From: an uncultured virus (IMG/VR IMGVR_UViG_3300028394_000079) | Taxonomy: Duplodnaviria > Heunggongvirae > Uroviricota > Caudoviricetes | IMG/VR virus record: IMGVR_UViG_3300028394_000079 | DNA: 64,000 nt | Strand: one strand, 5' to 3' | Shown: positions 39,478-58,807 of the stretch, one piece after another | Layout: each line of letters begins with the position of its first letter | Position numbering within the stretch: the stretch's first letter is position 1 | Program-made: the position numbers and the translations under genes | The notes under the pieces: model-generated | Told to the model about the DNA's origin: nothing | Databases searched by the model: none | The model's input: the letters and a program-made list of their open reading frames with translations, nothing else

Positions 39478-39774
39478 ATGTACCGGAGTAGGAAGCTACT
39501 AGACATTGTTCGGGAATCGCCCTGTCAGATATGCGGGGCAAAGGATGGGACGATAGTGGCCGCTCACTCTAACCAACAACGGGATGGAAAGGGAATGGGC
39601 ATAAAATCCCACGACTACAGGATTGCCGCTTTATGTTATCTCTGTCATGCAGACGTAGACCAAGGACAACGTTTAAACAAGGAAGAGAGAAAGGCTGTCT
39701 GGGATGAAGCCCACAGAAGAACCATTGGATGGCTCTTTGATGGGGGTTACCTTACTGTGACAGACCTTTCTTGA
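39478..39774 (+). CDS. DUF1364-like zinc/HNH-type nuclease
   Basis: CQIC...AAHSN...GKGMGIK...LC..CH...D. Confidence 0.75.
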   Translation: MYRSRKLLDIVRESPCQICGAKDGTIVAAHSNQQRDGKGMGIKSHDYRIAALCYLCHADVDQGQRLNKEERKAVWDEAHRRTIGWLFDGGYLTVTDLS

Positions 39775-42700
39775 TCTCTTGGATATCACTGGTCATAGTG
39801 ATCAGTGCTTCATTGATACCGGATAGGGCATCCCGCTTTTCATCGGGATCCATGTCTGAGGCACGAATCTTCTTGGCATTTTCAAGCAAAGGTTTTATTT
39901 TGGCATCCATGTTTTTAATTAATCCACGAGCACCTAAAAGTTGTGCGTTGGGTAGACCAAACATACGGTGCTTACCTTCCATAAAGTCGGAAAGCTCATC
40001 ACCTTGACCTGTGCCTTTAAGGACATTCATTGTCCTGACAGTTTCATCAACCGCATCTTTTAGTTCAAAGTATGCAGAAAGACTTCCCTTGGCTTCTTTG
40101 TTAACCGCAAAGCGTTTATTGATTGGGTATTGATCAGGTCTAAGAGAGGGTTTTTTAACATCACTCATAGAATCAAAGACTGCATCTATAGCGCTAACCA
40201 AATACATGCCCATGGTTCCTGTGTAACCTTGAATCAAGTGATCAATCAAGATTGGAGATTCATTGATAGCCTTGCCCACTGTTTGTGCAATCTGCGTTGT
40301 GTTGGGGCCAACTTGTAAGCCGGGTCGAACCCCCTCTAAGCCCTGACCAACAATGGGTCGCATTGTAAAGTAAGAGTAGTTAGTACGTGCTTCCACCAAA
40401 GGCAAGACAACTTGAGGGATGTAGTTAACCGCAAAGGTACTACGCAGTGCACGTTCCATAGACTTAGCTAAGTCTTCTCCGGTATCACTACCAAACATGT
40501 ATGCCAAGATCCGCTCAGGAATCACTTTAAACAGAACACCAACTTCAAACGGAATGGGTATCAGGCGATTAATACCGGGGATGATCCAGTTGTTATCCTT
40601 GACTTCTTGTTCTTGCTTTTTGTATTCATCATCATCCTTCATCATGAACCAATACATAGAACTCAAAGCCATCATTGTGGCTCCACGGATGATAAAGGCT
40701 TTTTGAACACGCTTTTGGTAATCAGTCTTGCTTACGCCCTCTGGCCTTGGAGCCATACCAGCGCGGTACAGAACATCTAAGCCTTGGATACGTGCGTTTA
40801 AAAACGGTATAGCCGCAGTCACAATACGGATGATGGCAGAGCTACCCTTGCGGTTAAAGTTCATTACCTCCATCGCTTGACGGATAGCCTCGGCTTCATT
40901 GCCTGTACGAGCTAATGTATCCTTGTAAACGGCAATACGGGTAGCGGCATCAGATGCTTCTGTACCCTTCTCAAGGAATCCCCATAGACTTGTGATGGGT
41001 CGCAAGGCTTTCTCGGTGTCAGTTTGAGTCTTGGACTTCTTACGAAGATCTTTAGCCAGTTGACTACCGCTAGTGGCTACGTCTTTAGAGAAGTCATAAC
41101 CACCAATTGCGCCCGCATTCATCAAATCATAGAACTCAGGTGAGCGGTTAGCCATCACGCGACCAAAGTTACGGATGGTATCTACCATAGGGGTTATATC
41201 TGCACCGCTAGTTGCGTAAGCTGACAATGAGTCACGCATCATGTTGGCAAGGATAAAGCCGGGGTCTTTTGTAACCATGCTACGAAGCAAGTTGGCAGGG
41301 CCAGCCAAGATGCCAAGGAAAGGCATCTCTGGTAGGTTTAAACTCTGCATTGAATCGAACAGCAGACGGTCATATACAACGTAGGAAACGGGAATGCCGT
41401 TACGCAAAACGGTTACCGTATTGGGAGCACTAGAGACTTCAGGCAACTGAACCGCAGTACCCAAGAACAAGGCTTGGTCAATCGCTCTGTTAGCCGCAAT
41501 GTTCTTCATGCCTGACTGGACAGAAGCCTGAGTGTTCCGGACAACAGTCTCAAGGAAGTCAGCCAGTGGAGCCTCGCTACCTTTAGCTTTCTTAGGAGCC
41601 TTGACGTTAGACAAGCTTTGGAAGATGTTGGGGCCAAAGGTTTCTTCACCCTCTAACTGGCGGTAGAAAGGAATGTAGTCGGCATATTTCTTAAAGATTG
41701 CGCCCTTCTCAGGGGTAAGTACACCAGTTTTGACCATGTAATCCACATGGCCGTTGTTGTACTTAATCCAGTCAGCATGGACTTGTTTAAACTCAGGATA
41801 GAGAAGTTCCAAGTCATCCGCAAATTTAAGATCTTTTGTGTCAAACAACTCTTCTTTGTACTTGCCATTGCTTGTAGCTTCTAGGCGAGTACCCCGTCTA
41901 ACACCAGAGTAGAACTGAAATGCCCGATAGATGTAAGGATCACCACGTTTAGCCAAAGGCATTAACAACTCAGTCAAGCCTTTGACAGTACCGTTTAAAT
42001 CACTGACTGTTGTGTAGCCCTTTTCGTAGACTGGCACACCACCTTTGGATTCTCCATAACCCATGACTGCGGCGGCAACGCCTGCGGATGTATCAGACTG
42101 AAGAGCGGCAAACTCTGCGCTTGAGTCTGCAAGGAGTTCAATACCGCCCATCGCCTGAGCCATCTTCTTATCGTTGACGCTCATCTGGTTGTAACGATTA
42201 ATAGCACTGGCACGAAACTTAGATCTTGCTTCAGGAGAGATGGCGCTCATCATGCGCTCAATGAATCCTTCTTCTTCACGGACAGTGGTTGTGCCCAAGA
42301 TGCTTTGGTTAATATTTGCACCGTTGTTAGTCTGAGCAATCTGATCAGCAATGCTTGGGAAGCTAAACTTCTGCATTTTGCCGCCTTCACCGACAAGGCG
42401 AATGCCATTGTCTGCTGTTAAGGCAACTGCAAAATTATCATAGAAGCCGTCATAACCCAAGGTGTCAAAGATTTTAGGCCATGCAACGGCCATTTCCCCT
42501 TTGTTGGTTTGGTATCGATCAATGGTGCGAGAGTTGGTTACCGCCCTGTAGGCCGCAATGTCAGCACTGTCGCCTTTTTTCAAGAGTTTGTAATCAGGTA
42601 TACCCAAAACCTCGTTTAAATTATCTGCTTCTTTTTGTGTAAGCACATAATTTTTATTCATTAATTTATACGGGCGATCCGTAGCAGTCTCAAACACTAC

Positions 42701-45700
42701 GCCCGGATTGCGGCTTTCGCCACGATTTCTAGCGGCTTGAACCGACATTGGGTCTGCTTCTGCATTTGCGTAATTTGTGGCCGTATTTTTGCCGCCAAAA
42801 AACACCAAGCCACCCTCATCTAAAGTCCCGCTACTTGTTTTGATGGGTGAACGTGAGACAAGGACTTGACCGGAGGTTTCAATCTCTTTGGCTCGTTCTT
42901 CATGAGCACCGTGATAAAGCAATGTGTCGGCGGGTAATGTGTATTCTTTTTTATTCTGAGGCAGTTCTTTAGAATTAAACGAACGCAAGCTATAACGGAT
43001 GTCAGGGTTAGTGGGATCGTATGTACCGATGTTTCCTGTAGCAGACTTAATCTGTGTAGGTTCAAAAGCAACAGCCCACTGAACAGAACCATCTTTCTTC
43101 CTTAACAAAACACCGTCATAGCCAGCATCTTTTAATTCTTGTCGTTTAGGAATTTTGTCTAAAACGGAATCAACAATTAAAGGATTTTGCAAACTAATGT
43201 AAGCGGGGATAATGTTTGGCTTTGAGCCATACTGCATTCCACTCTTACCTGCATATGCCTCTGCATCAGCGGGGTCTGAAGTAAAATAAGATCCTTTACC
43301 AAGCAAGGCTCCAAAGTCCTTGGTGTTAAATGCGGCAATGTCTCCCTTGGAAACATAATCGTAGGGAGTGCCGTGGTACATAACAAGCGGCTCGCCATCA
43401 GCATCCACAACCTTACTGTCAGCAAAGAACCGTTTAAACTCAGGCGTATCTGGAGCCTGACGCAAGCTTAGTTTTGGCGGGTTGTATTCAACTACGGCAT
43501 CAGGGTTATATCCTTGGCCGTAGTCCACCACTAACTCACGCTCACCAGTGTGACCAATCATCACAATGTGTTCGGGCGTTAGATCCATCTCAACTACTGT
43601 AAGTTGGTCTTTAGGGATCTTCCGGAAGGTGGCTAAGTTGGCAAAAGATTGAGCAACATCAGGACGTAATGTAAAAGAAGCTAATTGGCTACCCATAGCG
43701 CCAGCTTTAATCTCCTCAAGTTCCTCTACGTGCATTAAACGATAGCCTTTAAACTCATTACCAAAAGACTGGCGCACCAAGTCTTGTACATTCTGCATGT
43801 ACTGCTTACCGCCTTGTACACGGTACAAGTCATATGCAGAATCACGATCACCTAACCCAGAGACGCTACCAATCCAGTTTTCACGAATAATTTCTACGCC
43901 TTCGGGTTCTTTAATATCGTCAGCTTTGTTAAAGAAATCATCAATTTGACGCAGACTAAAGCGCATGTCTTTAGTCTCGCCAAACTCACCAGTGTTACCT
44001 GTGGCTGACTTAACTTGGTTGGCATCAAAGACTGCGAGATTCTTCTTACCGTTCTCTTTTACATAGAAGGAATCAAAACCTAGACCTCTAATAGCTTCTT
44101 GTATTTCAGGACTTTCAATAGTATCCCAATCACCTTGTGCAACCTTATCAAACAAAGCTGTTACATCTAAATCTGGATTTCTTCCAAAAAAACTGTCTAA
44201 ATAAAAATTTAAACTATCTAAATTGTCAGAGTTTTCAAAGTCAAAGGGATTTTCTGCACGTACCCACAGAGGATAGACATTAATCTTGTTCTCACTTTTG
44301 ACAGATTCATCTTCATGTGCTCTTCCAAAGTATTCAGCTTCTTTGGCATATGGACTAATAAATATGGGAGCATTTTCCCTAAAGGCATTAAAGTCAACAC
44401 GGGAAGCGTGGTACATCACCAGAGGACGACCTTCTTCTTTAACAATGCTTTTGCCAAACCAGCGTTTAAACGCATTATCTGTAGGCGGGGCTTTGCGGTA
44501 AGCGGCATTTTCTGCTTCTTCAGCCGTTGGGAAAGATGTGCGGAGACTTAACTTTGGTTTGCTAGTTACATCAGGCTCAATATTAGAATCAGTTGCCCAC
44601 TCAGGCATTAACCCAATTTTTTGATCTGCGTAAATAGTATCTTCACCAGATGCGGTTTTATTAAATTCGGCATTGGGGCCAAAATTTACGTCTGAGTTTT
44701 GTCCCCTTGTGCCAGCAGTCATTGCTCTGGCGGCAAGTGGTGAATACATCCTAACGTGAGACTGGAAGGCGTTCTCTTCACCCTCTGCTCTAAATCCAAA
44801 ACCTTCCTTAACATGACCATAAAAATCATGCGTTGCTCTAAACACCTCAACTACTCGGGCTTGTCTGCCGGAAATAATAATATCTGTTAAAGCTAAAGCA
44901 GGGTTGATTCTGATTTGTTTTTCAGTAATGGCATCTTTGCCAAAACCACCATCAGCAGGGAAAACGTAAAGATGATTGTTGTTTAAAACATCAAGTATTG
45001 CATTACGTGGGTTTCCATAAGGATCCCTGTTGTTGGGCATAAACTCAATTGTTATGCCCGTTTTAATCATGGCTTCGTATTGAGCAATAGTTTCCTTAGC
45101 CCAAGCTTGATAAGCTTCTTTTACCTCTGACGCAAGCGGTCTGTTTAACATGCTAGCGTATGTGTTAGCCAGCAATGTAGAGAACTTTTTATCTAGTTTG
45201 TGGTAACTAGCTTGTTGGCGATATGGAATTCCCATTTGTTCCGCATACAAAATAGCCGCTTCTCTTGCAGGTATGTAAGGGCCAAATGTAACTTCAACAC
45301 CATCAACTTTTACTTTTGCTGGTAATCCTTCAACCGGTTCTTCAAGGTACGGATACTTTGCCCTTGTCTCATCATCCAGTAGTTGTATGTCTCTTCGTAC
45401 TCTTCGTTGGTCTGGAAGTTCTTGCGCTGAGGCTTTGAGTTTTCCAGTTCTTTGATTTTGTTTTCTAGATCCATACCCTTCTCCTTCTTCAAAATAATTC
45501 TTTACAGCCCTAACTTGTGCCGCTACTAATTCATCAGAGTCGTCGTAGTATGGGCCGGGATTTTCTAACAAAGTTGTGCTGTCGTCCGGATCATATGACA
45601 TGTAAACAACGTCAGGCTCACCCTTGTTGTAGTCTTCAAATGTTATCTTGTTCCAGTTGTCAGGTATGTATTCTTCATTCCAAGTCATGCGGCCAACAGC

Positions 45701-48700
45701 TTTAAACCCATTGGCGTGGTAAAGGGTGGGAAGAATTGTGGCAAATGCGTCAAGCCTTCTACCGCCTTCTTGTACCGCTAACTGGAGCGATGAGTTGGCA
45801 GATCCTCTGTGTGGCTTACCTGAGAAGACGGAAACAATATCGTCTTTCTTAAGGGCAATGCCAGACTTACCATCTTGGGTTAAGAACAGGCGCATCTTGG
45901 CGTAGTCCTCTACAGGATACACAAAGACAGCCGCACCATATTCAGTTGAATCTTTGGATGCCTGAATGGCATCCGCATATGTCTGAGCATCATCACCGCT
46001 AATCTCATAGAACACGGGCGATTCAAACCCGTGGTCGCTGATGATGTCTTTAAACCCTTGAGTAGGTCTGTATCGGGCAATTGGCGCTACGCCTAGAACC
46101 CGAATTCCTTCGCCATCTTCAATGCTTTCTCGCGTGTGAGTCCCGGGTTCAGATTCATTGCGTCCTCTATAGGATCGTACGGCTTCTCTGAGGGAGTATT
46201 TTGGCCCGTAGTCAGACTTCCCACGAAGTTCCTCAGCGTTCTTGACCGCTCCTCCGGATTCATCCCTGCCGTTAAGTTCTGTATCGAAGACCACACTGGG
46301 TCTTGCTCGTCCAGTAGTCTTTCCGGACTGAGCGATGATTGCTTCTTCGTATCCGATGTCATCGGCTTTCCTTCCGCTTAGTTTTTCGTAGAGGCGTTTC
46401 TCATAATACCAAAGAGCCGCTTGGATGTCAGCTAAAGTTAAATTAATGCCGTCTTTACGCAACATAGTTTGCGCTTTACGGCCTGCGTCATACATGAACT
46501 TGCGGTCGGTAGCTGTAAACGGTGCTTCCTCCAGCATCTCAAATTCATTCTTGTAGATGGTGTTAGCCATCTTCTCAAGGTTGTGTTCAAACAACAGTTG
46601 GTCGTAGGCGGCTCCGGCTTTGGCTTTGGCTTTCTTAAACCATGCTGGTTTCTTGTCTTTCTTGGCAGGCTCTTTCCCCTTAGCCAAATGCTCAAGCTCA
46701 GTGCTATAGCCGTATTCCTCGTACTTATTACGCAGGGGAATCGTAGCGGCAATCACTTCATCACGGGTTGCGCTAGGCATTTCCATCATGTCACGGAACT
46801 TGTTAATAGACGCTTCAGTTGCCTGAGGAATTAACAAGCCACGCATCCGGTTGACAGAGCGAGTCCACCACAGATCCATGGTGAGATAGCCCTCTGAGCC
46901 AGAGAGGTTGGCGTAGAACGCACCCAGCTTAGGCCCAAAGTAGACTGCGGCGGCAGGGACAGTCGTGTCCTTGAGGTAGCTACCATCAGTGTCTTCACCC
47001 ATCTCACGCAGACGGGCATTCATTTCTTTGACCGTAATTTCTTCTAAGAGAACCTTCTCAAACTTTGTGCCGTGCAGATTAAGCAGGTCTTGGATCATCT
47101 TGAGGTTGTTCTCAAGAGCGGTAGCTCTACGGTTGCCCATGGCAATCAGAGGCTTACCATCACGCAGTTTGGAATACAGCGTGATAGCGTTAGTAATGTT
47201 CTTGTTAACCTTTTCACCGTTAGATGTAACTGCCACCAATGCAGAGAATACAGAACGGGCGTGTTTGTTATCGCTCAGTTCAGGGAAACGGCTTGCCAAG
47301 CGTTTAACCGCCTTGGGATAGTTGTTTGAATACCAACCCAGACCTGTACCAGTTGTGGCTTGAGTGCCCAATTGGAATGCAACCTCATCTGCCATTGCCC
47401 TAGCAAGCTGAGTAGATTGCTCTTCGCTCAAGTTGCTTCGATCCATCTGGCCGAAACGATCTATGGTGTATTGGTTTAAAGCACTGGCGATGTCCCGGAC
47501 ATTATTGAATATGCCACGCTTGGCCTTGGTGTTTAAACCAAGATCCTGCTGGGACGCAGTCATGTCCTGCTCCATAAAGTTACGGGTAGACAGCGGCGTA
47601 TAAACGGGCTGTTTTTCATCCCCGTAGAAAGCGCCAAAGGATGTAAGCGACTTCTTAACTTCTTTGTTTGCCTCGGCAGGCTTAGAAGGTTTTAGTTCAC
47701 CCTTCTCAATCTTGCCAAAGATGTCCTTGTAGGACTCGTAGCCTTGACCATTGAGGTATGACTTGAGGGTAGAGAAGAAGTTGCGGAGTTTGTTCAGCAA
47801 CGCAGTCAACATTCCCGGAGGAGCCTTGTTAGCATCAAAGTCACCAAAGGCATCTGCGATTGCTTCTTCCAGAATGTCTGCTTCGTTTAAACCCATCTCA
47901 ACATAGGCATCGTACCGGCTGACAACTCGCCCGTCGGATGTCTTTGTTTGATTGTTCTTAAGGTACTTGTCTACCCACTCAGCTTTAGCTTGACGCTCTA
48001 AAGAAGCCCACTGGGAATCAGTAAAGAACCCTAGTTCTTTTAAAGCATGGAGGGCTTCATGGCGCATAACCCTTACAGGGTTCTGTGCATCGATAGCTAA
48101 CTGGATAACCTTAGCGGCATAGGAGCCATCTGCGCCCTGTTCAATGGCATTAACAATCTTTAGGGCTACATCCTGTAGGCCAAACCGTCCCAACATGGAT
48201 TGGAGGGAAGCTTGTACGGCTTGAAGCCCTTGTGTTTGTTCTGGTGTTCTAGGTGCTGGTGCTGGCGCTGTAGACCGGCGGGCAATCTCTGCGTTTAAAC
48301 GAGCCTTTAACTTAGGAGATTTGGTTTTTGCCAACTCTTGAATTTCTTTGTCTGACAGGTCTTCAAAGATAGATTGCTCGGCTTCCTCACGGGTAGCCTT
48401 GGTTCCTTTAACAACCTGACCCTTGGTAACTCGGTATGTCTTGGGCGTAACCTTCTTTGTGCCAACAGGCACAACAGTGACAGGCCTGCTATAGATCTCT
48501 TCTTGATTCTTAAGGTTAGCAATGACGGGCATAGCCTCGTCTAGCACGGCTTGGTGCGCTTCTTCTGCAACCTTATATGCGGGGGTATCAACCAACCCAT
48601 TGAGTTCAAACTTGTGCAGTTCGTTCTCGGACTTAGTAATCTTTGCGTCTTGAGCCTTTAAAGCTTCTTGCGTTTTCTTAAGTTCACCCTGTGCAAAACT

Positions 48701-50674
48701 GTTTAGTTTCTCAGCATGAGTATTGGCTTGCTCCATGGTGTCCATAGAGCGAACCTTTTGGTCACCGCTCATGACATCATAAGATTCTGCCTGCTCTTCT
48801 TCTTGCCCAACTTCCTCCTGAATGTTGTATCCAGTAGGTGTGGTACGTGAGGGAACACTAACTTTCTTGTCTTCCGTGACAATACTTCCGTTCTTAGTTG
48901 CATCGTTAAGCAAGGCATTAACGGCAGAACCCTTTAGTCCTGTGGCCGTCTCTATGGCTGTTGTTGTTTCTTTAAACGTTAACTCATCCTTACCAACTTC
49001 ATCCATCTTGGCGTTTAAAGCATCTACAGCCTGTGTAACTTGTTCAGGTGTGTAGCGTGTAGCGTTAGTGCCTTCGGGTAGGGCTTGCTTAGTCTCAAAT
49101 GTAGGGAGCTTCTGTAGGGCTGTAACCGCAGAATGCAACTGGGGCTGAGACATCTGAGCAAGATCAGCGATGCCAGTTGATCTAGAAAGGAAGTCCCCAA
49201 ACCCGGGAGCGTTTACATCCACATTCTTTTCAGTAGCCAGCGCAGTTACCGCGTCAGGCGTGTAAACCTGATCTGTGTGACCGGTCTTCTGGGCGATCAA
49301 TGCGTTTAAAGCGGCAGTCTCTTTAGCTACATCTTTGCCCGGCAGGGCATCAACCACATCATCCAAACTGTACGCAGATAGCGTAGGCTTACCTGTTGCT
49401 GTCCGGTGCTCGTTTACATATGAGGTTAACTCAGGGCCAAGGTCAGCCTCTGTCAAAGCACCAATAGGGTTCTTAACAACCTCCATCTGCTTGGAGATTA
49501 CTGCCCGCTTTTCTTCAGCTAGTTTGGTGTCTTCAGCCCTGCGCTTCTCAAACTCTGCGTTCTTGACATCTTCAGGATTAATTGTGGGTTTACCACCAGA
49601 GATAGCACCTGCACCACCACCGATAAGGCCTGCGCCTAAAGCGGCTTGACCTAGGGTTTGTCCTAGTCCGGCAGTGAGACTTTGCTCTGGATTGACTTCA
49701 CGCAAGGCAAGGTTCTGGGTAACTTTACCGCCACCCTCTTCAACCATTTCCTCAGGGATATTCTTAAGAGCGCCAGCGATTGCACCTTTAATACGACCTG
49801 TACCAAGTCTTTCGCCTGCAAGGGCACGTTCTAGGGCTTGTGCACCGGGTAATTTCTGTGCCAAAAGGGAAATAGCCGCACCACTTACTCCGGAGGCTCT
49901 GGCAAGGTTTAAAGCCTCTGCCGAAGCCTGAGGCTCGGACATGCCTTTTTCCTTCATCAGGTACTGTTTGATCTCCTCAAAGCTACCTGAGCCGATGTCT
50001 GCGCCCTGTTGGGCGGCTCCAGTGCCAATAGCGGCGGCAGTACCACGAGCTATTTGGGATTTTTTAGCGGCATCTTCAGCTAAATCAACAATGGCTTTGG
50101 CGGCTTTTTCTTTAGCGGCATTACCGACTGCGGCCTTGGCGGCAGTCTGAGCGGCACGTAACTCTGCGGCGGCGGCAGGGCCAACACCGGGAATAGCGGC
50201 GGCAAGAATAGAAGGGATAGCCTGAGGAAGTTGCTCTGCGGCAAAACCGATACCCTGAGTTAAAGGGTTCTTAAGGACTTCACCAAACTGAGTGCCTAAG
50301 GCTGAAAGAACACCCTTTTTCTCGGCTTCTTCAACCTTACGGGCAGTTTCTGCTTCTTCAGATACAAGCTTTTCAGAAAGCTTCTTCTTGGCATAGTCCT
50401 GTAATTCTTGACCTAGGCCTTGCAGGCCAGTGGTTCCAAAGTCTTTCTCTTTGATAGCACCTGTAGTCAGGCCATAGATCTGACCGGGGAACTGAATTAA
50501 TGAGCCAATGCCTGAGGCAAACTTAGCCGCAGGGTCGGTAAAGGCTTCAGTAACTGTGCGCTCTTTAACGGGGCGTGACGTACCGCCTAGCTCTTTGGCT
50601 AATTTCTCTAGATTAACTGGTTCAATTTTGGTTGAAACACCGCCATACTGTTTTGCCAGTTCTTCTAGATCCAT
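39752..50674 (-). CDS. Large polyvalent (probably virion-injected) protein
   Basis: 3640 aa, following the ejection genes. HEALH zincin motif (~48050), HhH-like domain (~46400-47400), GNAT-like (~45600-45900), HDFYGH domain (~44800), two ART-like PLVMYH...QxKSATGN domains (~44000-44470, ~43000-43440), LPD38-like C-terminus. Confidence 0.85.
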   Translation of the reverse strand: MDLEELAKQYGGVSTKIEPVNLEKLAKELGGTSRPVKERTVTEAFTDPAAKFASGIGSLIQFPGQIYGLTTGAIKEKDFGTTGLQGLGQELQDYAKKKLSEKLVSEEAETARKVEEAEKKGVLSALGTQFGEVLKNPLTQGIGFAAEQLPQAIPSILAAAIPGVGPAAAAELRAAQTAAKAAVGNAAKEKAAKAIVDLAEDAAKKSQIARGTAAAIGTGAAQQGADIGSGSFEEIKQYLMKEKGMSEPQASAEALNLARASGVSGAAISLLAQKLPGAQALERALAGERLGTGRIKGAIAGALKNIPEEMVEEGGGKVTQNLALREVNPEQSLTAGLGQTLGQAALGAGLIGGGAGAISGGKPTINPEDVKNAEFEKRRAEDTKLAEEKRAVISKQMEVVKNPIGALTEADLGPELTSYVNEHRTATGKPTLSAYSLDDVVDALPGKDVAKETAALNALIAQKTGHTDQVYTPDAVTALATEKNVDVNAPGFGDFLSRSTGIADLAQMSQPQLHSAVTALQKLPTFETKQALPEGTNATRYTPEQVTQAVDALNAKMDEVGKDELTFKETTTAIETATGLKGSAVNALLNDATKNGSIVTEDKKVSVPSRTTPTGYNIQEEVGQEEEQAESYDVMSGDQKVRSMDTMEQANTHAEKLNSFAQGELKKTQEALKAQDAKITKSENELHKFELNGLVDTPAYKVAEEAHQAVLDEAMPVIANLKNQEEIYSRPVTVVPVGTKKVTPKTYRVTKGQVVKGTKATREEAEQSIFEDLSDKEIQELAKTKSPKLKARLNAEIARRSTAPAPAPRTPEQTQGLQAVQASLQSMLGRFGLQDVALKIVNAIEQGADGSYAAKVIQLAIDAQNPVRVMRHEALHALKELGFFTDSQWASLERQAKAEWVDKYLKNNQTKTSDGRVVSRYDAYVEMGLNEADILEEAIADAFGDFDANKAPPGMLTALLNKLRNFFSTLKSYLNGQGYESYKDIFGKIEKGELKPSKPAEANKEVKKSLTSFGAFYGDEKQPVYTPLSTRNFMEQDMTASQQDLGLNTKAKRGIFNNVRDIASALNQYTIDRFGQMDRSNLSEEQSTQLARAMADEVAFQLGTQATTGTGLGWYSNNYPKAVKRLASRFPELSDNKHARSVFSALVAVTSNGEKVNKNITNAITLYSKLRDGKPLIAMGNRRATALENNLKMIQDLLNLHGTKFEKVLLEEITVKEMNARLREMGEDTDGSYLKDTTVPAAAVYFGPKLGAFYANLSGSEGYLTMDLWWTRSVNRMRGLLIPQATEASINKFRDMMEMPSATRDEVIAATIPLRNKYEEYGYSTELEHLAKGKEPAKKDKKPAWFKKAKAKAGAAYDQLLFEHNLEKMANTIYKNEFEMLEEAPFTATDRKFMYDAGRKAQTMLRKDGINLTLADIQAALWYYEKRLYEKLSGRKADDIGYEEAIIAQSGKTTGRARPSVVFDTELNGRDESGGAVKNAEELRGKSDYGPKYSLREAVRSYRGRNESEPGTHTRESIEDGEGIRVLGVAPIARYRPTQGFKDIISDHGFESPVFYEISGDDAQTYADAIQASKDSTEYGAAVFVYPVEDYAKMRLFLTQDGKSGIALKKDDIVSVFSGKPHRGSANSSLQLAVQEGGRRLDAFATILPTLYHANGFKAVGRMTWNEEYIPDNWNKITFEDYNKGEPDVVYMSYDPDDSTTLLENPGPYYDDSDELVAAQVRAVKNYFEEGEGYGSRKQNQRTGKLKASAQELPDQRRVRRDIQLLDDETRAKYPYLEEPVEGLPAKVKVDGVEVTFGPYIPAREAAILYAEQMGIPYRQQASYHKLDKKFSTLLANTYASMLNRPLASEVKEAYQAWAKETIAQYEAMIKTGITIEFMPNNRDPYGNPRNAILDVLNNNHLYVFPADGGFGKDAITEKQIRINPALALTDIIISGRQARVVEVFRATHDFYGHVKEGFGFRAEGEENAFQSHVRMYSPLAARAMTAGTRGQNSDVNFGPNAEFNKTASGEDTIYADQKIGLMPEWATDSNIEPDVTSKPKLSLRTSFPTAEEAENAAYRKAPPTDNAFKRWFGKSIVKEEGRPLVMYHASRVDFNAFRENAPIFISPYAKEAEYFGRAHEDESVKSENKINVYPLWVRAENPFDFENSDNLDSLNFYLDSFFGRNPDLDVTALFDKVAQGDWDTIESPEIQEAIRGLGFDSFYVKENGKKNLAVFDANQVKSATGNTGEFGETKDMRFSLRQIDDFFNKADDIKEPEGVEIIRENWIGSVSGLGDRDSAYDLYRVQGGKQYMQNVQDLVRQSFGNEFKGYRLMHVEELEEIKAGAMGSQLASFTLRPDVAQSFANLATFRKIPKDQLTVVEMDLTPEHIVMIGHTGERELVVDYGQGYNPDAVVEYNPPKLSLRQAPDTPEFKRFFADSKVVDADGEPLVMYHGTPYDYVSKGDIAAFNTKDFGALLGKGSYFTSDPADAEAYAGKSGMQYGSKPNIIPAYISLQNPLIVDSVLDKIPKRQELKDAGYDGVLLRKKDGSVQWAVAFEPTQIKSATGNIGTYDPTNPDIRYSLRSFNSKELPQNKKEYTLPADTLLYHGAHEERAKEIETSGQVLVSRSPIKTSSGTLDEGGLVFFGGKNTATNYANAEADPMSVQAARNRGESRNPGVVFETATDRPYKLMNKNYVLTQKEADNLNEVLGIPDYKLLKKGDSADIAAYRAVTNSRTIDRYQTNKGEMAVAWPKIFDTLGYDGFYDNFAVALTADNGIRLVGEGGKMQKFSFPSIADQIAQTNNGANINQSILGTTTVREEEGFIERMMSAISPEARSKFRASAINRYNQMSVNDKKMAQAMGGIELLADSSAEFAALQSDTSAGVAAAVMGYGESKGGVPVYEKGYTTVSDLNGTVKGLTELLMPLAKRGDPYIYRAFQFYSGVRRGTRLEATSNGKYKEELFDTKDLKFADDLELLYPEFKQVHADWIKYNNGHVDYMVKTGVLTPEKGAIFKKYADYIPFYRQLEGEETFGPNIFQSLSNVKAPKKAKGSEAPLADFLETVVRNTQASVQSGMKNIAANRAIDQALFLGTAVQLPEVSSAPNTVTVLRNGIPVSYVVYDRLLFDSMQSLNLPEMPFLGILAGPANLLRSMVTKDPGFILANMMRDSLSAYATSGADITPMVDTIRNFGRVMANRSPEFYDLMNAGAIGGYDFSKDVATSGSQLAKDLRKKSKTQTDTEKALRPITSLWGFLEKGTEASDAATRIAVYKDTLARTGNEAEAIRQAMEVMNFNRKGSSAIIRIVTAAIPFLNARIQGLDVLYRAGMAPRPEGVSKTDYQKRVQKAFIIRGATMMALSSMYWFMMKDDDEYKKQEQEVKDNNWIIPGINRLIPIPFEVGVLFKVIPERILAYMFGSDTGEDLAKSMERALRSTFAVNYIPQVVLPLVEARTNYSYFTMRPIVGQGLEGVRPGLQVGPNTTQIAQTVGKAINESPILIDHLIQGYTGTMGMYLVSAIDAVFDSMSDVKKPSLRPDQYPINKRFAVNKEAKGSLSAYFELKDAVDETVRTMNVLKGTGQGDELSDFMEGKHRMFGLPNAQLLGARGLIKNMDAKIKPLLENAKKIRASDMDPDEKRDALSGINEALITMTSDIQEIKKGLSQ
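45310..45474 (-). CDS. Putative nested gene in the +1 frame of the polyvalent gene
   Basis: AAGGAG-6 nt-ATG; 54 aa, helical and charged: MDLENKIKELENSKPQRKNFQTNEEYEETYNYW... Confidence 0.55.
   Translation of the reverse strand: MDLENKIKELENSKPQRKNFQTNEEYEETYNYWMMRQGQSIRTLKNRLKDYQQK
46093..46362 (-). CDS. Putative nested gene in the +1 frame of the polyvalent gene
   Basis: GGAAGGA-6 nt-ATG; 89 aa ending DPIEDAMNLNPGLTREKALKMAKEFGF. Confidence 0.55.
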   Translation of the reverse strand: MTSDTKKQSSLSPERLLDEQDPVWSSIQNLTAGMNPEERSRTLRNFVGSLTTGQNTPSEKPYDPIEDAMNLNPGLTREKALKMAKEFGF

Positions 50675-52101
50675 TATTTTGCTCCACTAGCTAGTCTAAA
50701 CGCATCAGCCGCCGCTTGGGTTGGGAATGTGTGAACCATTCCTCCTGCCGTAACAGTATATCCTCCAGCGGTTGGAGTCGCACTAGGAGTTGCACTTGGA
50801 GTTGCGCCGGGAACGGCAGAAGGCAAGCCTTTTTCAGCTAGTGGGCCAATGTTGTACTTAGAATAATGCTTATTAATACCTTCAAGATCGGCGGCTTTCT
50901 CAGTTTTCCACGCTTCTTTTTCAGCTTTTTGATACTGGCGTGGATCATCTTTATATTTTGTATCGTGTTCTTTAATTGCTCTTTCGTATTGACCAAGCAA
51001 TGCGGCATCTGCTTGACCAGTTCTATTTCCATACACGCTTGCAATACCTTCTCTGATAGCATTTAAACGATCTGGGTCGGCTTTTTGGAGGGCATCTGCA
51101 ATTTGCAAAGCTGGGTTAATTTTCATAACGCCAACTTTGTCACGCTCAATAGCAAGCTTCTTAAGTTCAAGATCTTTCTCTTGAGCCAACTTAAGCTTTT
51201 CTTGATCTGTTCTAGCCACTTGGATAGCCGCATCGTACTTCTGCTTGATAGCGGCTTCAGCGGCAGTGTTACCTGTCTGGTACAGTTCTTTCTTATACTG
51301 ATAGCCAGTGTCAGACTTCCTCTGAGCCAGATCAATCATTTTGTCAGTCAAGGTGTTCTGTTCTGCTTCACGGGCTTTCTGCAATGCTCTTTGTTGCTGT
51401 GCACCATAAGAGCCAGCCGCCGCACTAGAGCGGGTACTAACTGGAGCATTGGCAACCTGCTCAAGATACTCCATCACTGCGTCATAGCCGGGTTTAGGAG
51501 GAGCAAGCTTCTCCTTACGTGCTTGGTTCTCAGCAATTAAGCGATCAATCTGCGTCGTGTCGGGAGCACCAACTTCAGCCCTTTGACGCTCAATAGCGGC
51601 TGTACGTTTAGCTTCCTCGTTTACACGCATCTGTTCACGAAGAATGTCGTCTGCGCTTCTTGTGTCTGGTGTTGGGCCACCCTCATCAAACGAGACTACC
51701 CCGCCATGGAAATAGGATTCGCCCACATTAGAGGTTAGGCTATCAATGCCCTGTTCCTCAGGTTGAGGTCTAGGTTGTGGAACTCCCATAGGAACAATAC
51801 CGGGTCTGCCATCTTTAGCCATTTGCTTCTGAGCCTCCTGAACCATACGAGCCTGTAAAGCCTGCTTGGCCTTGGCCTGAACATCTTCTGCAACTGTTGG
51901 CATGTTAGGAGGAGCGTTTAAAGCGGCCTGAATACCAGCACCCTGACGCATCTGGTTGATGTCGTTTAAAGCAAGAAGCTGGCGCAAATCCTGTGGGATT
52001 CCACCATGTTGTTTTTTATCTTGGTCAACTTTCTGAGCCAAGGGCGCAGGGTTGCCTTGATATGCTGAGGCAATCTGATTGACGGATGGAGGTGTAAACA
52101 T
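50674..52101 (-). CDS. Internal virion/ejection protein
   Basis: 475 aa, A/Q-rich coiled coil, FHGGVVSFDEGG. Confidence 0.6.
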   Translation of the reverse strand: MFTPPSVNQIASAYQGNPAPLAQKVDQDKKQHGGIPQDLRQLLALNDINQMRQGAGIQAALNAPPNMPTVAEDVQAKAKQALQARMVQEAQKQMAKDGRPGIVPMGVPQPRPQPEEQGIDSLTSNVGESYFHGGVVSFDEGGPTPDTRSADDILREQMRVNEEAKRTAAIERQRAEVGAPDTTQIDRLIAENQARKEKLAPPKPGYDAVMEYLEQVANAPVSTRSSAAAGSYGAQQQRALQKAREAEQNTLTDKMIDLAQRKSDTGYQYKKELYQTGNTAAEAAIKQKYDAAIQVARTDQEKLKLAQEKDLELKKLAIERDKVGVMKINPALQIADALQKADPDRLNAIREGIASVYGNRTGQADAALLGQYERAIKEHDTKYKDDPRQYQKAEKEAWKTEKAADLEGINKHYSKYNIGPLAEKGLPSAVPGATPSATPSATPTAGGYTVTAGGMVHTFPTQAAADAFRLASGAK

Positions 52102-52112
52102 TTAAATATCCT

Positions 52113-54941
52113 TCAGGCTAGGCCAAGATTCTTTAACAAAGCATTAACGGTGGAAGCACCTTGAGAAGCTTTAAGCAACGCAGAAGGCTCAATACCTTGA
52201 TAGCTCTGAGCCGCCAAAGGCAGGCCTTGCAATAAAGACTGTTGGTACTGAACCATCTTATAAGGATTGGCCCTAGCTTCTTCAAACTGTGCTTTGTCTG
52301 CGGCAATACCTTCAGACTCAATGCCACGTTGTTGACCGCCAGCGGTCAGTTGTGCGTTGAGGTTATTAATGTCGGCTTGGTTCTGTTGAACGCCCAAAGC
52401 GCCTTGAGCCGTGGCGGCTTGTAAGCCTGCCTGTAGACCCTGCAAACCGTAGCCTGCACCGTATTGAGCTTCTTGCATCTTACGGGTCTGATCAGCATTG
52501 AACTGCTGTTGTGCATTGTTAAACGCAGTGTTATAGCCCTGACCAGTGATATTAGCTAGGTTAGTGCCTAAGTTACGCTGTGTTTCGGCATCAAGGATAG
52601 CCTGACGGGAGCCTCCAAAAGCACCTGCCTGAGTCATCTTGGCGGCATTACCTTGTTGGGTAATCTGAGACTGACGGCGAGCTTCATCTAGTTGAGGATT
52701 CAAAGAAGCCTGCAAATAGGGGTTCATGTAATTCTGAGCCTGTGCCGCATCAAACGATGTGGTTGTAGGCGTGTACTTCAACCCTTGAGCCGCAGTACCA
52801 ATAGTTCCTGCGTTTGTAGCGGCAGTACCAATGCTAGACGGTGTTTGTAGATTGGAAGCATTGCTGAATGCTGAAGTCTGTAAAGGAGATTCACCCGCAG
52901 ACAACTGACCCATGTAAGCCTGATAAGGCATGTTAGCCAAGGCTTGGCCTTGACCAAGCATGTTGGTTACATATGGGCCTGCCCAGTTGGATAGGTTAGA
53001 TTCAACGCCTGCAAGACCTGCGCCGTAGTTAGCCGCAGGAGTTCCTGTGGAACCACCATTGTCAAAGTGCTTAACTGAGCCACCTGAAGCGTAAGCTTGA
53101 GCCAATCCACCGGGCATAAACTTATCAGGGTTGATACGTTTACCTTGTTTCTTTGTACCTGTACGTGCCATACGAATTTTGTCCATCATTTGATAAAGCT
53201 TCTTAGCTCCGGCATCAGAGTTGCCGTTACCCATATGGGAAACCACATCCGCAGGGATAACAAACTCACCATGGCTTAAAGCGGCGGGTTGGTCATTACC
53301 AATTTGGGCTGGAAGTTTATCTGCCATGCCATCTGTTTCACCTTGTAGATAACGACCTTTAGCCATACCACCCTCGGCAAATGCTTCGCTGTAAGGATCA
53401 TAAAATCCAACCTTATTAGAACCAAGAGCCGCATCATATGCGGCCTGAACATCAGCCACATTTGAACCTGTAGCTTGTGCTACTTCGGCTGGAGAATAAC
53501 CCAAAGCTTGCATGGTTTCAGCAATACCTCGTGTATTACCAGAGGCAAGTGCGGCTTGTGTTGAGGGGTCGGCAAAATACTGATAAATCTCGCTCATCTT
53601 GCCTGAGTTGTCAGGCGCAGTATTTTGAACCGCTGTAGGTGTTGATGCGGCTTGCACAACATCAGCCACTTTAGTAGGAGGAGGTGGTGTAGAAGTATCC
53701 GCTACATTAGTAGTGGGTAGATAGTTAACAGTAGCCGCCGCAGATGTAGGATTAGCGGTGTAATTTTGCGCCGTGGCAAATTTATTAGCGGCATTGATAT
53801 CACGTTGATCAAGTCCCGTAGCCGCTAATGCGGCGGCAACTTCAGCAGAAGAATGACCTGCGGCTTGGTAGTCCAAGATATTCTTGTACAACTGATCTAA
53901 GCCCATGTCATTAATGATTGCAGATTCTTTGCCAGCAGAGGCTGACAGGCCGTTTAAACCACGGGCAATATCCGCATCATTAACTCCTGCGGCTTTCATT
54001 GCATCTTGTATCTCTTTGTTTGTTGCATATGGGTGTTGAGAAACCCAATCAGCAATCTTGAAATTCAACTCTTGCAAACCTTGACCATGAGTCAAACCAT
54101 ACTTTGTGTAGTCTGAAAAGTTTGTGGTTCCTAAAGCCGTTTGCAAATCTTCTTGGCTTACGCCAAACTGGCTCATGGCGGCATCAACTTGCGCTTTACT
54201 TGCACGGGGATTATCAATAAGCCATTGATTAATATTGCCTAAATATTGGGCGGGAGTAAGTCCTGCCGCAATAGCGGCTTGGTATCCCTTAGAACCTAGG
54301 TTGGTAGGTGGTGGAGGCTTAACATCAAGTGGTAAAGGTGTTATTGTTTTGGGTAATGGGGGGGTTACTACTTTTGTGCCACCGGGAGTCACGGTTGTGC
54401 CACCGGGAGTTGTGCCGCCTGCAATAGTGGTTAAACCTCCGGAAGTTGTGTCGCCGGGAGTGGTTAAATTTGCACCAGCCGCAGAACCTGAAGTTCCTGA
54501 CAGATTGGCATAAGGAGCTTGACCCGGAGCAAGCGTGTAGGATACATCACCACCATAATCAATCCCACCTGCGCCGGGACGGTAGCCTTGTGCACGGGTA
54601 GGAGGAGCGGCAATCATTGAACGAGAAGCGGCTAATGTAGGAATAACGCCTTGGTAGCCTGTCTTCTTATCAGCGTTTGTACCGCCACCATAGACACTAG
54701 CCAACGCGCCTGCACCAGTTATAAATGCTTTGTTATCTGTTACAAACTTCTTTAGCCCTGCTATACCAGCAGATGGATCCATCACAGTTTGGTTTGTAAA
54801 AACATCACCGCGTGTAAACGGTGAATTGGGGCCGGTACTAGTGTTGGGGTTGGTATTTGGATCCGTATCTGCGCCGGGGAACGGTGCGGCTACTGTATAA
54901 CCACCGCCAGCATCTTCTACGTCATATGCATTTTCATCCAT
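52113..54941 (-). CDS. Internal virion/DNA transfer protein
   Basis: 942 aa; GDG..D...LSHGEFVIPADVV domain; YMNPY...GAFGGSRQ Q/G-rich C-terminus. Confidence 0.65.
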   Translation of the reverse strand: MDENAYDVEDAGGGYTVAAPFPGADTDPNTNPNTSTGPNSPFTRGDVFTNQTVMDPSAGIAGLKKFVTDNKAFITGAGALASVYGGGTNADKKTGYQGVIPTLAASRSMIAAPPTRAQGYRPGAGGIDYGGDVSYTLAPGQAPYANLSGTSGSAAGANLTTPGDTTSGGLTTIAGGTTPGGTTVTPGGTKVVTPPLPKTITPLPLDVKPPPPTNLGSKGYQAAIAAGLTPAQYLGNINQWLIDNPRASKAQVDAAMSQFGVSQEDLQTALGTTNFSDYTKYGLTHGQGLQELNFKIADWVSQHPYATNKEIQDAMKAAGVNDADIARGLNGLSASAGKESAIINDMGLDQLYKNILDYQAAGHSSAEVAAALAATGLDQRDINAANKFATAQNYTANPTSAAATVNYLPTTNVADTSTPPPPTKVADVVQAASTPTAVQNTAPDNSGKMSEIYQYFADPSTQAALASGNTRGIAETMQALGYSPAEVAQATGSNVADVQAAYDAALGSNKVGFYDPYSEAFAEGGMAKGRYLQGETDGMADKLPAQIGNDQPAALSHGEFVIPADVVSHMGNGNSDAGAKKLYQMMDKIRMARTGTKKQGKRINPDKFMPGGLAQAYASGGSVKHFDNGGSTGTPAANYGAGLAGVESNLSNWAGPYVTNMLGQGQALANMPYQAYMGQLSAGESPLQTSAFSNASNLQTPSSIGTAATNAGTIGTAAQGLKYTPTTTSFDAAQAQNYMNPYLQASLNPQLDEARRQSQITQQGNAAKMTQAGAFGGSRQAILDAETQRNLGTNLANITGQGYNTAFNNAQQQFNADQTRKMQEAQYGAGYGLQGLQAGLQAATAQGALGVQQNQADINNLNAQLTAGGQQRGIESEGIAADKAQFEEARANPYKMVQYQQSLLQGLPLAAQSYQGIEPSALLKASQGASTVNALLKNLGLA

Positions 54942-58804: not shown

Positions 58805-58807
58805 CGG

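What the first reader, a model, noticed from the sequence alone, without database searches (positions are those of the whole stretch)
45310..46362. Small genes nested in the +1 frame of the polyvalent protein, each directly after a putative enzyme domain
Seen: two same-strand ORFs (46362-46093, 89 aa; 45474-45310, 54 aa) lie in the same +1 frame inside the 3640-aa gene. Each has a good SD 6 nt before the ATG and a helical, protein-like sequence. The host frame over them is R/G/S/E-rich and linker-like. The first starts right after the HhH-like domain and the second shortly after the GNAT-like domain. Other off-frame ORFs in this gene look like noise. Known: phage polyvalent proteins carry conflict enzymes, and polymorphic toxins keep immunity genes immediately downstream. 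Inference: these may be embedded immunity or chaperone genes that travel with their domain without breaking the polyprotein frame.
Basis: partly seen in the sequence, partly recalled or inferred. Interest (0 to 1): 0.85.

Follow-up and report, generated by a model that had tools for sequence, protein, structure and literature searches.

The report
Hidden small genes inside phage polyvalent gene
Two small genes are written in a second reading frame inside a giant phage protein gene, and one of them probably makes a plug for the acetyltransferase domain encoded just after it.

Summary
Both +1-frame ORFs exist as described inside the 3640-aa polyvalent gene (39752..50674, minus strand). Their length and openness are no more than chance: the host protein sequence alone keeps the +1 frame open. 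Comparison with relatives shows both are real dual-coding genes.

- **Starts:** ATG and SD-like sites are conserved.
- **Substitutions:** they follow the +1 codon phase, and host synonymous divergence drops 4- to 7-fold.
- **Whole-gene scan:** in well-aligned parts it flags only these two ORFs and the first 90 nt.
- **C-terminal motif of ORF1** (…NPGLTREKALKMAKEFGF*): found upstream of the GNAT-like module in the +1 frame in 57 of 140 loci, and in 0 of 140 in either other frame.
- **High-GC bacterial copies:** codon-position GC follows the nested frame in 31 of 31.
- **Host frame:** stays open in 29 of 29 lineages against 1.4 expected.

The downstream module folds as a GNAT. A complex model puts ORF1 residues 62-89 in its cofactor/substrate groove (score 0.87, best of 3 controls 0.00).

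ORF1's C-terminal module and ORF2 travel with the domain downstream of them, as in toxin-antitoxin operons. Translation and inhibition are untested.

The parts
39752..50674 (-). Host gene: 3640-aa polyvalent protein, with ART-PolyVal at aa 2424-2551 and LPD38 at aa 3348-3518.
   Evidence: It lies in the late/structural gene block of a ~64-kb phage genome.
46093..46362 (-). Nested gene ORF1: 89 aa, +1 frame, stop included.
   Evidence: The ATG is conserved at the homologous site in 19 of 19 viral loci. +1-frame dN/dS is 0.44 (CI 0.29-0.63).
46366..46375 (-). SD-like GGAAGGAAAG upstream of the ORF1 ATG. It is built from host codons S-G-R-K, and the Arg codon is always AGR.
   Evidence: AGR makes up 47 of 177 Arg codons in the host gene.
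46198..46362 (-). ORF1 N-module (codons 1-55). It co-occurs with the upstream host domain that ends ...LWYYEKRLYEKLSGRKADDIGYEEAII.
   Evidence: In codons 29-55 the diversity at host codon positions 1, 2, 3 is 0.539/0.409/0.311.
46096..46179 (-). ORF1 C-module (residues 62-89, YDPIEDAMNLNPGLTREKALKMAKEFGF). It is conserved in the +1 frame in front of GNAT-like modules and is the predicted GNAT-binding part.
46187..46201 (-). Host junction motif KYSLR (aa 1492-1496), lying between the N- and C-modules of ORF1. It is one of six [KR][FLYM]S[LF][RKP] motifs at module borders.
   Evidence: In L006-L020 the nested ORF ends at the equivalent junction.
45479..46108 (-). GNAT-fold module of the host protein (210 aa modelled).
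   Evidence: AF2 pLDDT 92.6, pTM 0.87. All top Foldseek PDB hits are GNAT acetyltransferases.
45310..45474 (-). Nested gene ORF2: 54 aa from ATG, +1 frame, stop included.
   Evidence: +1-frame dN/dS is 0.22 (CI 0.13-0.37) against 0.75 in the control. The HMM hits the +1 frame in 9 of 45 unique module-3 loci and no other frame.
45481..45486 (-). SD AAGGAG, 6 nt before the ORF2 ATG. The ATG itself is formed by host codons Tyr-Gly (TAT GGA).
   Evidence: duplex energy -8.8 kcal/mol.
44558..45307 (-). Host module 3, the module ORF2 travels with. Its function is unknown. Residues H160, D161, H165 and E177 of the modelled piece are invariant.
   Evidence: pLDDT 86.3. There is no clear PDB match.
46363..47707 (-). 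Upstream host domain of unknown family (about aa 990-1437), whose 3' tail carries the start of ORF1.

Best explanation
ORF1 and ORF2 are genuine small protein genes overprinted in the +1 frame on inter-module linkers of a virion-type polyvalent protein gene. Each is translated from its own SD and ATG while the host frame reads the same DNA as a tolerant G/R/S/E-rich linker.

The nested pieces are module-specific. The C-terminal two-helix module of ORF1 belongs to the GNAT module that starts where ORF1 stops, and ORF2 belongs to the unknown module that follows it. The first 55 codons of ORF1 belong to the tail of the upstream domain. The two ORF1 pieces are joined in frame at the host KYSLR junction.

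Most likely mechanism (inferred): the ORF1 product binds the GNAT domain through residues 62-89 and occupies the acetyl-CoA/substrate groove. That would keep this effector domain inactive in the producing cell, as an antitoxin or immunity protein does. ORF2 would do the same for its module.

Shown here: dual coding and module linkage. Predicted only: binding. Inferred: inhibition and translation.
For: **Independent start.**
- The ATG sits at the same site in 19 of 19 viral loci plus the window, and in phage DC33.
- Anti-SD pairing of <= -5 kcal/mol occurs at 70% of 33 nested starts against 19% of 2257 control ATGs (MWU p = 1.5e-9; starts are not phylogenetically independent).

**Selection in the +1 frame.**
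- ORF1: diversity at host positions 1/2/3 goes from 0.161/0.119/0.443 upstream to 0.539/0.409/0.311 in codons 29-55.
- ORF1: +1 dN/dS is 0.44 (CI 0.29-0.63) and host dN/dS 0.88. Host synonymous distance is 1.445 upstream and 0.346 in the overlap.
- ORF2: +1 dN/dS is 0.22 (0.13-0.37) against a control of 0.75 (0.55-1.03). Host dS falls from 1.66 to 0.32.
- C-module: host dS falls from 1.579 to 0.211.
- The whole-gene scan of 3 genomes flags only the ORF1 and ORF2 spans and the first 90 nt in well-aligned parts.

**Deep conservation.**
- The C-module HMM hits the +1 frame in 57 of 140 unique loci, and the host and +2 frames in 0. Among the 118 loci not used to build it the counts are 35/0/0.
- In 31 of 31 high-GC bacterial loci GC by codon position follows the nested frame: 0.64/0.43/0.83.

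**Both frames kept.** The host frame is open over the nested ORF in 29 of 29 lineages; 1.4 are expected under synonymous recoding.

**Partner.**
- GNAT fold: pLDDT 92.6, and all top PDB hits are GNATs.
- Complex model: score 0.87, best of 3 controls 0.00. This mark was reached by 116 of 157 solved complexes and 2 of 215 mismatched pairs. These counts hold only roughly here because my own alignments were used. The runs agree in at least 58% of contacts and the partner pLDDT is at least 55.
- The interface is ORF1 residues 62-89 against GNAT residues 55-57, 82, 94-97, 100-105, 123-132, 159-161 and 177-184. By the secondary structure these are strand 90-96, the loop before helix 103-113, and strand 118-122 with helix 126-132. 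Assigning these elements to the acetyl-CoA site is from general knowledge of GNATs.

**Module linkage.** ORF2 is missing in L005/L023, where another module follows the same GNAT.
Against: - No evidence of translation: no Ribo-seq, MS or expression data were examined.
- The open +1 frame is fully explained by the host amino-acid sequence (100% of shuffles).
- The +1-frame dN/dS estimator is biased low in this frame: controls give 0.70-0.75. For ORF1 the confidence intervals overlap slightly.
- Binding is a model's confidence, with a low partner pLDDT (55-58) and self-made alignments.
- The nested proteins match no antitoxin or immunity family. None of 29 members shares a Pfam family and there is no PDB sequence relative.
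- Toxicity of this GNAT is unknown.
- ORF2-like sequences were found only in the 8 module-3 loci of >=67% identity and one at 48%. They were not found in 36 loci of <=51% identity.
- 83 of 140 loci gave no C-module HMM hit. These include the Rhodococcus/Nocardia variant and distant stand-alone GNAT genes.
Confidence: 0.55

Rival explanations
1. The small proteins are real, but they are not inhibitors. They could be folding or packaging chaperones, adaptors that prepare the module for encapsidation or ejection, or required subunits or regulators of the enzyme.
For: The evidence for coding and module linkage is the same as for the main reading. The complex model shows only contact, not effect. 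The ORF1 N-module travels with the upstream domain, whose function is unknown. The gene sits among virion genes.
Against: The predicted footprint covers the strand-loop-helix elements that bind acetyl-CoA in GNATs (the site assignment is from general knowledge). That placement is more typical of an inhibitor than of a chaperone. The gene order, small gene first with its stop just inside the enzyme module, matches toxin-antitoxin operons.
Confidence: 0.3
2. The +1 segments are reached by programmed ribosomal frameshifting rather than by their own starts. That would give truncated polyvalent isoforms ending in ...FGF, or an N-terminally different GNAT isoform.
For: The +1 ORF ends a few codons into the GNAT module in all lineages. 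In 8 of 19 viral loci the +1 frame is open 25 codons upstream of the ATG.
Against: There is no conserved slippery heptamer: 5 of 24 lineages have one in the nested frame and 6 of 24 in the host frame, at scattered places. ATG and SD are conserved. In many lineages the ATG lies 0-10 codons after a +1 stop: 19 of 32 rows, by my count.
Confidence: 0.08
3. They are chance ORFs. Hydrophilic linkers lack the codons that make +1 stops, and the apparent conservation is a by-product of host-frame or nucleotide-level (RNA structure) constraint.
For: The +1 frame is stop-free in 100% of synonymous shuffles, and ORF counts match chance. The dN/dS method is biased low for this frame.
Against: In the overlaps the host frame evolves almost neutrally (host dN/dS 0.88, and 1.30 in ORF1 codons 29-55) while the +1 frame is constrained. 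The motif is found only in the +1 frame, 57/0/0 of 140. GC3 phase follows the nested frame in 31 of 31 loci. The start, SD and stop position are all conserved. The neighbouring +1 ORF decays in 7 of 15 homologues.
Confidence: 0.04

Closest known systems
Type II GNAT toxin / RHH (DUF1778) antitoxin pairs (TacA-TacT, AtaR-AtaT, KacA-KacT)
   Same: A small protein is encoded immediately upstream of a GNAT, with its stop at the start of the GNAT coding region. Its C-terminal two-helix segment is predicted to sit on the GNAT and cover the acetyl-CoA region. In KacA-KacT the antitoxin's C-terminal strand and two helices wrap the toxin and impair AcCoA binding (PMC6698736; passages read).
   Different: There is no RHH/DUF1778 domain and no sequence similarity. 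The small gene is overprinted inside the larger ORF rather than separate. The GNAT is an internal module of a 3640-aa phage protein. Tool hits are generic GNATs, and no toxicity or tRNA acetylation is shown.
Embedded +1-frame gene pairs of phages (lambda Rz/Rz1; phiX174 B in A, E in D) - recalled, not checked in a call
   Same: A complete gene lies within another gene on the same strand in another frame. In Rz/Rz1 the two products bind each other.
   Different: The function differs: those are lysis or replication genes. Here the host frame over the overlap is only a linker, the arrangement recurs at several module junctions, and it is conserved from phages to actinobacterial elements.
Polymorphic toxin-immunity cassettes (CdiA-CT/CdiI, Rhs, phage MuF toxins) - recalled
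   Same: Delivered multi-domain proteins carry swappable enzyme modules, each with a cognate small binding protein that travels with it.
   Different: In those systems the immunity genes lie downstream as separate ORFs and the toxins are C-terminal. Here ORF1's C-module and ORF2 lie upstream of the module they travel with, nested and in another frame, and the modules are internal.
Polyvalent proteins of phages and conjugative elements (Iyer et al. 2017, PMC5512222)
   Same: The host gene is a member: it carries ART-PolyVal and LPD38. The paper describes RimI-like GNAT families in such proteins, with solo versions in Firmicutes and Actinobacteria (passages read).
   Different: In the passages returned for 'nested', 'frame', 'immunity' and 'antitoxin' the paper does not mention genes embedded in other frames. 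Its supplements were not examined.

Membership tests
Same-strand overlapping (overprinted) protein-coding gene | An ORF with a conserved start codon and ribosome-binding site inside another gene | tested here: met
   The ATG is conserved in 19 of 19 loci and the ORF2 ATG in all 6 relatives. SD enrichment is 70% against 19%.
Same-strand overlapping (overprinted) protein-coding gene | Purifying selection in the alternative frame and loss of host synonymous divergence | tested here: met
   and the GC phase in 31 of 31 loci.
Same-strand overlapping (overprinted) protein-coding gene | Both frames kept open beyond expectation | tested here: met
   The host frame is open in 29 of 29 lineages against 1.4 expected. 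The reverse direction carries no information: 100% of shuffles keep the +1 frame open.
Same-strand overlapping (overprinted) protein-coding gene | The product is detected (Ribo-seq, MS) | not testable with these tools
   No translation data were examined.
Type II GNAT-RHH toxin-antitoxin system | The toxin has a GNAT fold | tested here: met
Type II GNAT-RHH toxin-antitoxin system | The antitoxin gene lies directly upstream, abutting or overlapping the start of the toxin | tested here: met
   In most motif-bearing rows the nested stop lies about 1 to 31 nt after the position aligned to GNAT residue 1, and up to 11 nt before it in a few.
Type II GNAT-RHH toxin-antitoxin system | The antitoxin carries an RHH/DUF1778 (or HTH) DNA-binding domain | tested here: not met
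   No such Pfam match appears in 29 members, and no family is shared by more than one member.
Type II GNAT-RHH toxin-antitoxin system | The antitoxin binds the toxin and blocks acetyl-CoA binding or activity | tested here: inconclusive
   Model only: score 0.87 against controls of 0.00, with the interface on the strand-loop-helix elements.
Type II GNAT-RHH toxin-antitoxin system | The GNAT is growth-inhibitory (acetylates aminoacyl-tRNA) | not tested
Polymorphic toxin-immunity cassette | The immunity gene lies immediately downstream of a C-terminal toxin domain | tested here: not met
   The C-module and ORF2 track the module downstream of them, and the modules are internal.
Polyvalent protein (host gene) | A giant multi-domain protein with polyvalent-specific domains in a phage | tested here: met
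   ART-PolyVal at E 1.8e-36 and LPD38 at E 3.8e-35. Phage structural genes surround it.
Programmed -1/+1 ribosomal frameshift site | A conserved slippery sequence at the frame junction | tested here: not met
   Heptamers occur in 5 of 24 (nested frame) and 6 of 24 (host frame) lineages, at non-homologous places.

The most novel reading that the evidence does not exclude
Polyvalent effector proteins of phages and conjugative elements carry a hidden second layer of genes. Many enzyme modules would bring their own small binding or neutralising protein, overprinted in the +1 frame on the linker in front of the module, so that module and antidote recombine as one unit at the SLR-type junctions.

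At least five such nested families were seen here. They are the ORF1 N-module, the GNAT-linked C-module, ORF2, the MATVREFKEKPGQMFGG family and the DC33-type MENPQSLPNQEPE family. The GNAT-linked one reaches from freshwater phages to Rhodococcus and Nocardia genomes.
Probability: 0.4. Interest if true: 0.9.

Novelty: new variant of a known kind. Interest (0 to 1): 0.8.

Why it matters
Gene callers rarely report ORFs nested inside another gene, so this class of small proteins goes largely unannotated. The DC33 GenBank record lists only the 3125-aa gene. The 27 database proteins that resemble ORF1 are unnamed or called hypothetical, and a further 294 clusters turned up in a library that carries no names.

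If the products neutralise the enzyme modules, three things follow:
- It would explain how phages and plasmids can make large multi-enzyme effectors in the producer cell without self-harm.
- It would give a ready set of natural, specific inhibitors for unknown effector domains.
- It would offer a clean natural case of long-lived dual coding in which one frame is reduced to a linker.

It also gives a practical rule for finding more: look in the +1 frame of polyvalent-protein linkers.

Tried and rejected
- **Nucleotide and peptide searches of cultured phages.** blastn of the region found nothing. tblastn of ORF2 found nothing.
- **Family searches on the nested proteins.** Pfam, PHROGs and NCBIfam gave nothing meaningful. 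The two PHROG rows for ORF2 (E 0.039 and 0.096) are noise.
- **PDB sequence searches.** For the GNAT alignment and the nested alignment they returned only TAL-repeat or designed-protein rows, which I regard as helical-repeat artefacts.
- **Module 3.** There was no Foldseek match at E <= 0.001. VIA-align's best Z was 2.7, including small metallopeptidase-like chains, which is too weak to use. The Atlas gave only unnamed viral clusters scoring 0.84 or lower.
- **A true in-frame fusion of the upstream domain with the small protein.** P0157 (448 aa) looked like one, but it reads as a frameshifted run from the host frame into the +1 frame.
- **A stand-alone two-gene cassette (small gene, then GNAT).** Distant stand-alone GNAT genes (L074, L076-L083) have unrelated small ORFs upstream and no motif. 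Rhodococcus and Nocardia copies are again nested inside a roughly 400-aa ORF.
- **The plasmid pHG203 record** was not in the annotated collection.
- **Prior reports of genes nested in polyvalent proteins, or of antitoxins inside toxin genes.** Five searches (listings and abstracts only) showed none.

Full report
**What is there.** The window is essentially a ~64-kb phage genome. It encodes terminase, portal, major head protein, tail fibres and endolysin, and GC is 47%. On the minus strand, 39752..50674 encodes a 3640-aa protein with Pfam ART-PolyVal (aa 2424-2551) and LPD38 (aa 3348-3518), so it is a polyvalent protein. ORF1 is 46093..46362 (89 aa) and ORF2 is 45310..45474 (54 aa). Both have SD-like sequences: GGAAGGAAAG, and AAGGAG 6 nt before the ATG. 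Anti-SD duplex energies are -5.7 and -8.8 kcal/mol. The host frame over them is a G/R/S/E-rich linker.

**Is it more than chance in this sequence alone? No.** When the host gene is recoded synonymously, the +1 frame stays stop-free over both spans in 500 of 500 shuffles. The linker lacks the Leu/Ile/Val/Met codons that create +1 stops. The gene has 7 off-frame ATG ORFs of >=54 aa against 4.7 expected, and 2 of >=89 aa against 1.2. The other five overlie ordinary domains and read as noise. Everything below therefore rests on comparison with relatives.

**ORF1, first half.**
- A scan of viral contigs with host aa 1300-1800 gave 19 loci of 52-100% identity.
- In all 19 a +1 ORF of 55-89 aa starts with ATG at the same nucleotide. 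The ATG is made from host Asp-Asp/Glu codons GAT-GAN.
- It is preceded by GGAAGGA, GGGAGAA or GGGAGGA, made from host Ser-Gly-Arg-Lys with Arg always AGR. In the host gene AGR is 47 of 177 Arg codons and GAT is 128 of 217 Asp codons.
- Among the 15 unique sequences, mean pairwise diversity at host codon positions 1/2/3 is 0.161/0.119/0.443 in the 415 nt upstream. It is 0.226/0.173/0.180 over nested codons 1-28 and 0.539/0.409/0.311 over codons 29-55. The last pattern has the phase of the +1 frame.
- A simplified OLGenie-type count gives +1-frame dN/dS 0.44 (bootstrap CI 0.29-0.63), and 0.36 in codons 29-55. Host-frame dN/dS is 0.88, and 1.30 in codons 29-55. Host synonymous distance falls from 1.445 to 0.346.
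- Controls: the +2 frame gives 1.14. The upstream +1 frame gives 0.70 (0.53-0.94), which shows the known downward bias of this estimator.
- The 104-aa +1 ORF just upstream (46438..46752) has stops in 7 of 15 homologues.

**ORF1, C-terminal module.**
- tblastn of ORF1 against cultured phages hit Limnohabitans phage DC33 (E 4e-3, residues 63-89). The hit lies inside DC33's 3125-aa polyvalent gene, again in the +1 frame. There a 71-aa ATG ORF ends ...DPIEAVMQNNPGLTRQEIVEMAEKFGF*. The record annotates only the large gene.
- Scans with an alignment of the downstream host module gave 63 metagenome, 27 viral and 73 bacterial-genome loci.
- In most loci where this module sits in a long ORF, a +1 ORF of 47-182 aa from ATG ends, in most rows, about 1 to 31 nt after the position aligned to the module's first residue. 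Its last ~27 residues fit a two-helix motif (h-h-x-x-h-x-x-x-P-x-L-T-x-E-x-A-x-x-M-x-x-x-G-F-stop).
- An HMM of that motif, run on all three forward frames upstream of the module in 140 unique loci, hit the +1 frame in 57 and the host and +2 frames in 0. Among the 118 loci not used to build it the counts were 35/0/0.
- Over the last 28 codons in 34 lineages, the mean BLOSUM62 score per site is 0.248 in the nested frame, -0.078 in the host frame and -0.418 in the +2 frame.
- In the 9 window-like sequences host synonymous distance is 0.211 in the overlap against 1.579 just downstream.
- In Rhodococcus, Nocardia, Bradyrhizobium and other high-GC genomes a variant ending ...IEEAEALGF* occupies the same place. 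One copy is on the record titled Rhodococcus opacus plasmid pHG203. In 31 of 31 such loci GC at codon positions follows the nested frame (0.64/0.43/0.83). This is the same pattern that the GNAT region shows in the host frame (0.67/0.44/0.78).
- The host frame is also maintained. Recoding the nested proteins synonymously would leave it open in an expected 1.4 of 29 lineages, and it is open in 29 of 29.
- Nested starts have stronger anti-SD pairing than other ATGs in the same loci (70% against 19% at <= -5 kcal/mol; p = 1.5e-9; lineages are not independent).
- No conserved slippery heptamer exists.

**ORF2.**
- Homologues lie in the +1 frame with ATG at the same host Tyr-Gly and a GAAGGA SD, for example MELRDRLKMLEDSKPKVKDFPSKEEYEEAYGYWMTRQGQSI.... 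They occur in L025, L026, L029, L126 and L128, in L130-L132, and more distantly in L145.
- In six sequences host position-3 diversity is 0.205 in the overlap against 0.477 downstream. +1 dN/dS is 0.22 (0.13-0.37) against 0.75 (0.55-1.03) in the control. Host synonymous distance is 0.32 against 1.66.
- ORF2 is absent from L005/L023, which share the GNAT (82% identity) but continue into a different module.
- Its HMM hits the +1 frame in 9 of 45 unique loci that carry the downstream module and no other frame. It misses all 36 loci of <=51% identity. ORF2 therefore tracks the downstream module within one clade.

**An unbiased scan.** I aligned the whole gene with the two held relatives (G002, G003; 84-91% identity). 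In the well-aligned parts, the only 90-nt windows in which host position 3 is not the most variable are nt 4366-4590 (ORF1), nt 5176-5310 (ORF2) and the first 90 nt.

**What the partners are.**
- The module after ORF1 (45479..46108) has no Pfam or NCBIfam match. It folds with pLDDT 92.6, and every top Foldseek PDB hit is a GNAT acetyltransferase.
- Iyer et al. 2017 describe RimI-like GNAT families in polyvalent proteins. In the passages I retrieved they do not mention embedded genes (PMC5512222).
- The complex model of this module with ORF1 passed. The score was 0.87 with the best of 3 controls at 0.00. This mark was reached by 116 of 157 solved complexes and 2 of 215 mismatched pairs, roughly, since my own alignments were used. 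The runs agree in at least 58% of contacts and the partner pLDDT is at least 55.
- The confident interface is ORF1 residues 62-89 against GNAT residues 94-97, 100-105 and 123-132, plus 55-57, 82, 159-161 and 177-184. By the model's secondary structure these are the strand, the loop before the following helix, and the next strand-helix. In GNATs these elements hold acetyl-CoA (general knowledge).
- In KacA-KacT the antitoxin's C-terminal strand and two helices wrap the GNAT toxin and impair AcCoA binding (PMC6698736; passages).
- The module after ORF2 (pLDDT 86.3, with invariant H/D/H/E residues) has no recognisable fold match.

**Modularity.**
- The host protein has six [KR][FLYM]S[LF][RKP] motifs at module borders. 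The one at aa 1492 (KYSLR) falls between the N- and C-modules of ORF1.
- In L006-L020, where another module follows, the nested ORF stops at that junction.
- So each host module seems to carry its own nested piece, and the window's ORF1 is an in-frame join of two pieces. An 87-aa database family has the same join, and a 168-aa one strings further motifs together.
- Other nested +1 families were seen in relatives.

**Reading.** Dual coding is well supported (about 0.9). Binding of ORF1 to the GNAT is predicted (about 0.7). An inhibitory, antitoxin- or immunity-like role is an inference from the footprint and gene order (about 0.5). Chaperone or adaptor roles remain open. The nested proteins belong to no known antitoxin family, so they may work like a GNAT antitoxin but are not members of that family. 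Five literature searches (listings only) showed no report of such nested genes in polyvalent proteins.

Noticed in passing
L008 2735.., L009 2729.., L014 2729.., L015 2747.., L020 2747.., L016/L017 2717..: A further +1-frame nested family of 66-73 aa (MATVREFKEKPGQMFGG...) starts at a host Tyr-Gly with an AAAGGAA SD. It lies in front of the 'GIHFSKQ...YGTGL' module. Host position-3 diversity is 0.255 there against 0.534 upstream.
   Followed up: partly
L001 6718..6906 and the same place in L037-L041, L093-L109: DC33-type phages have a second conserved +1 ORF (62 aa, MENPQSLPNQEPE...). It starts at the host Tyr-Gly (or His-Gly, Asn-Gly) right after the GNAT module, at the position homologous to the window's ORF2, but shows no detectable sequence similarity to it.
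   Followed up: partly
window 46187-46201, 44540-44554, 43949-43963, 43460-43474, 42983-42997, 42356-42370 (-): Six [KR][FLYM]S[LF][RKP] motifs (KYSLR, KLSLR, RFSLR, KLSLR, RYSLR, KFSFP) mark the module borders of the polyvalent protein. They may be recombination joints or protease sites.
   Followed up: partly
L149-L160, L164, L175, about 100 nt upstream of the module-3 match: In distant module-3 loci the +1 frame holds a different conserved peptide (…ETEEDG[LI]RA..[LI]R[LR]LK…) over a G/R-rich host linker. A similar stretch occurs inside the 168-aa database protein P0042.
   Followed up: no
L176-L213 (for example L191, titled Rhodococcus opacus plasmid pHG203): The GNAT module with its nested +1 ORF also occurs in Rhodococcus, Nocardia and other bacterial genomes. 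There it sits inside ORFs of roughly 400 aa that begin with a conserved ~110-aa N-domain (MC.K.PGPRCTPH...).
   Followed up: partly
window 44558..45307 (-): Module 3 is well predicted (pLDDT 86.3) and has invariant His, Asp, His and Glu residues. No PDB fold match was found: Foldseek gave none at E <= 0.001 and VIA-align Z was <= 2.7.
   Followed up: yes
L001 (PQ492659.1): The record's taxonomy line files this 39-kb phage, which has a 3125-aa polyvalent protein, under Inoviridae. That looks like a misclassification.
   Followed up: no
P0157 (database protein, 448 aa): This predicted protein runs from the upstream domain in the host frame into the +1 frame and ends with the C-module. It is most likely a frameshifted contig or gene call.
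   Followed up: partly
window 50674..63687 (-): Large genes of 475, 942, 549 and 632 aa precede the polyvalent gene in the same operon. Three of them have no PHROG match. The 632-aa one is a 'virion structural protein'.
   Followed up: no
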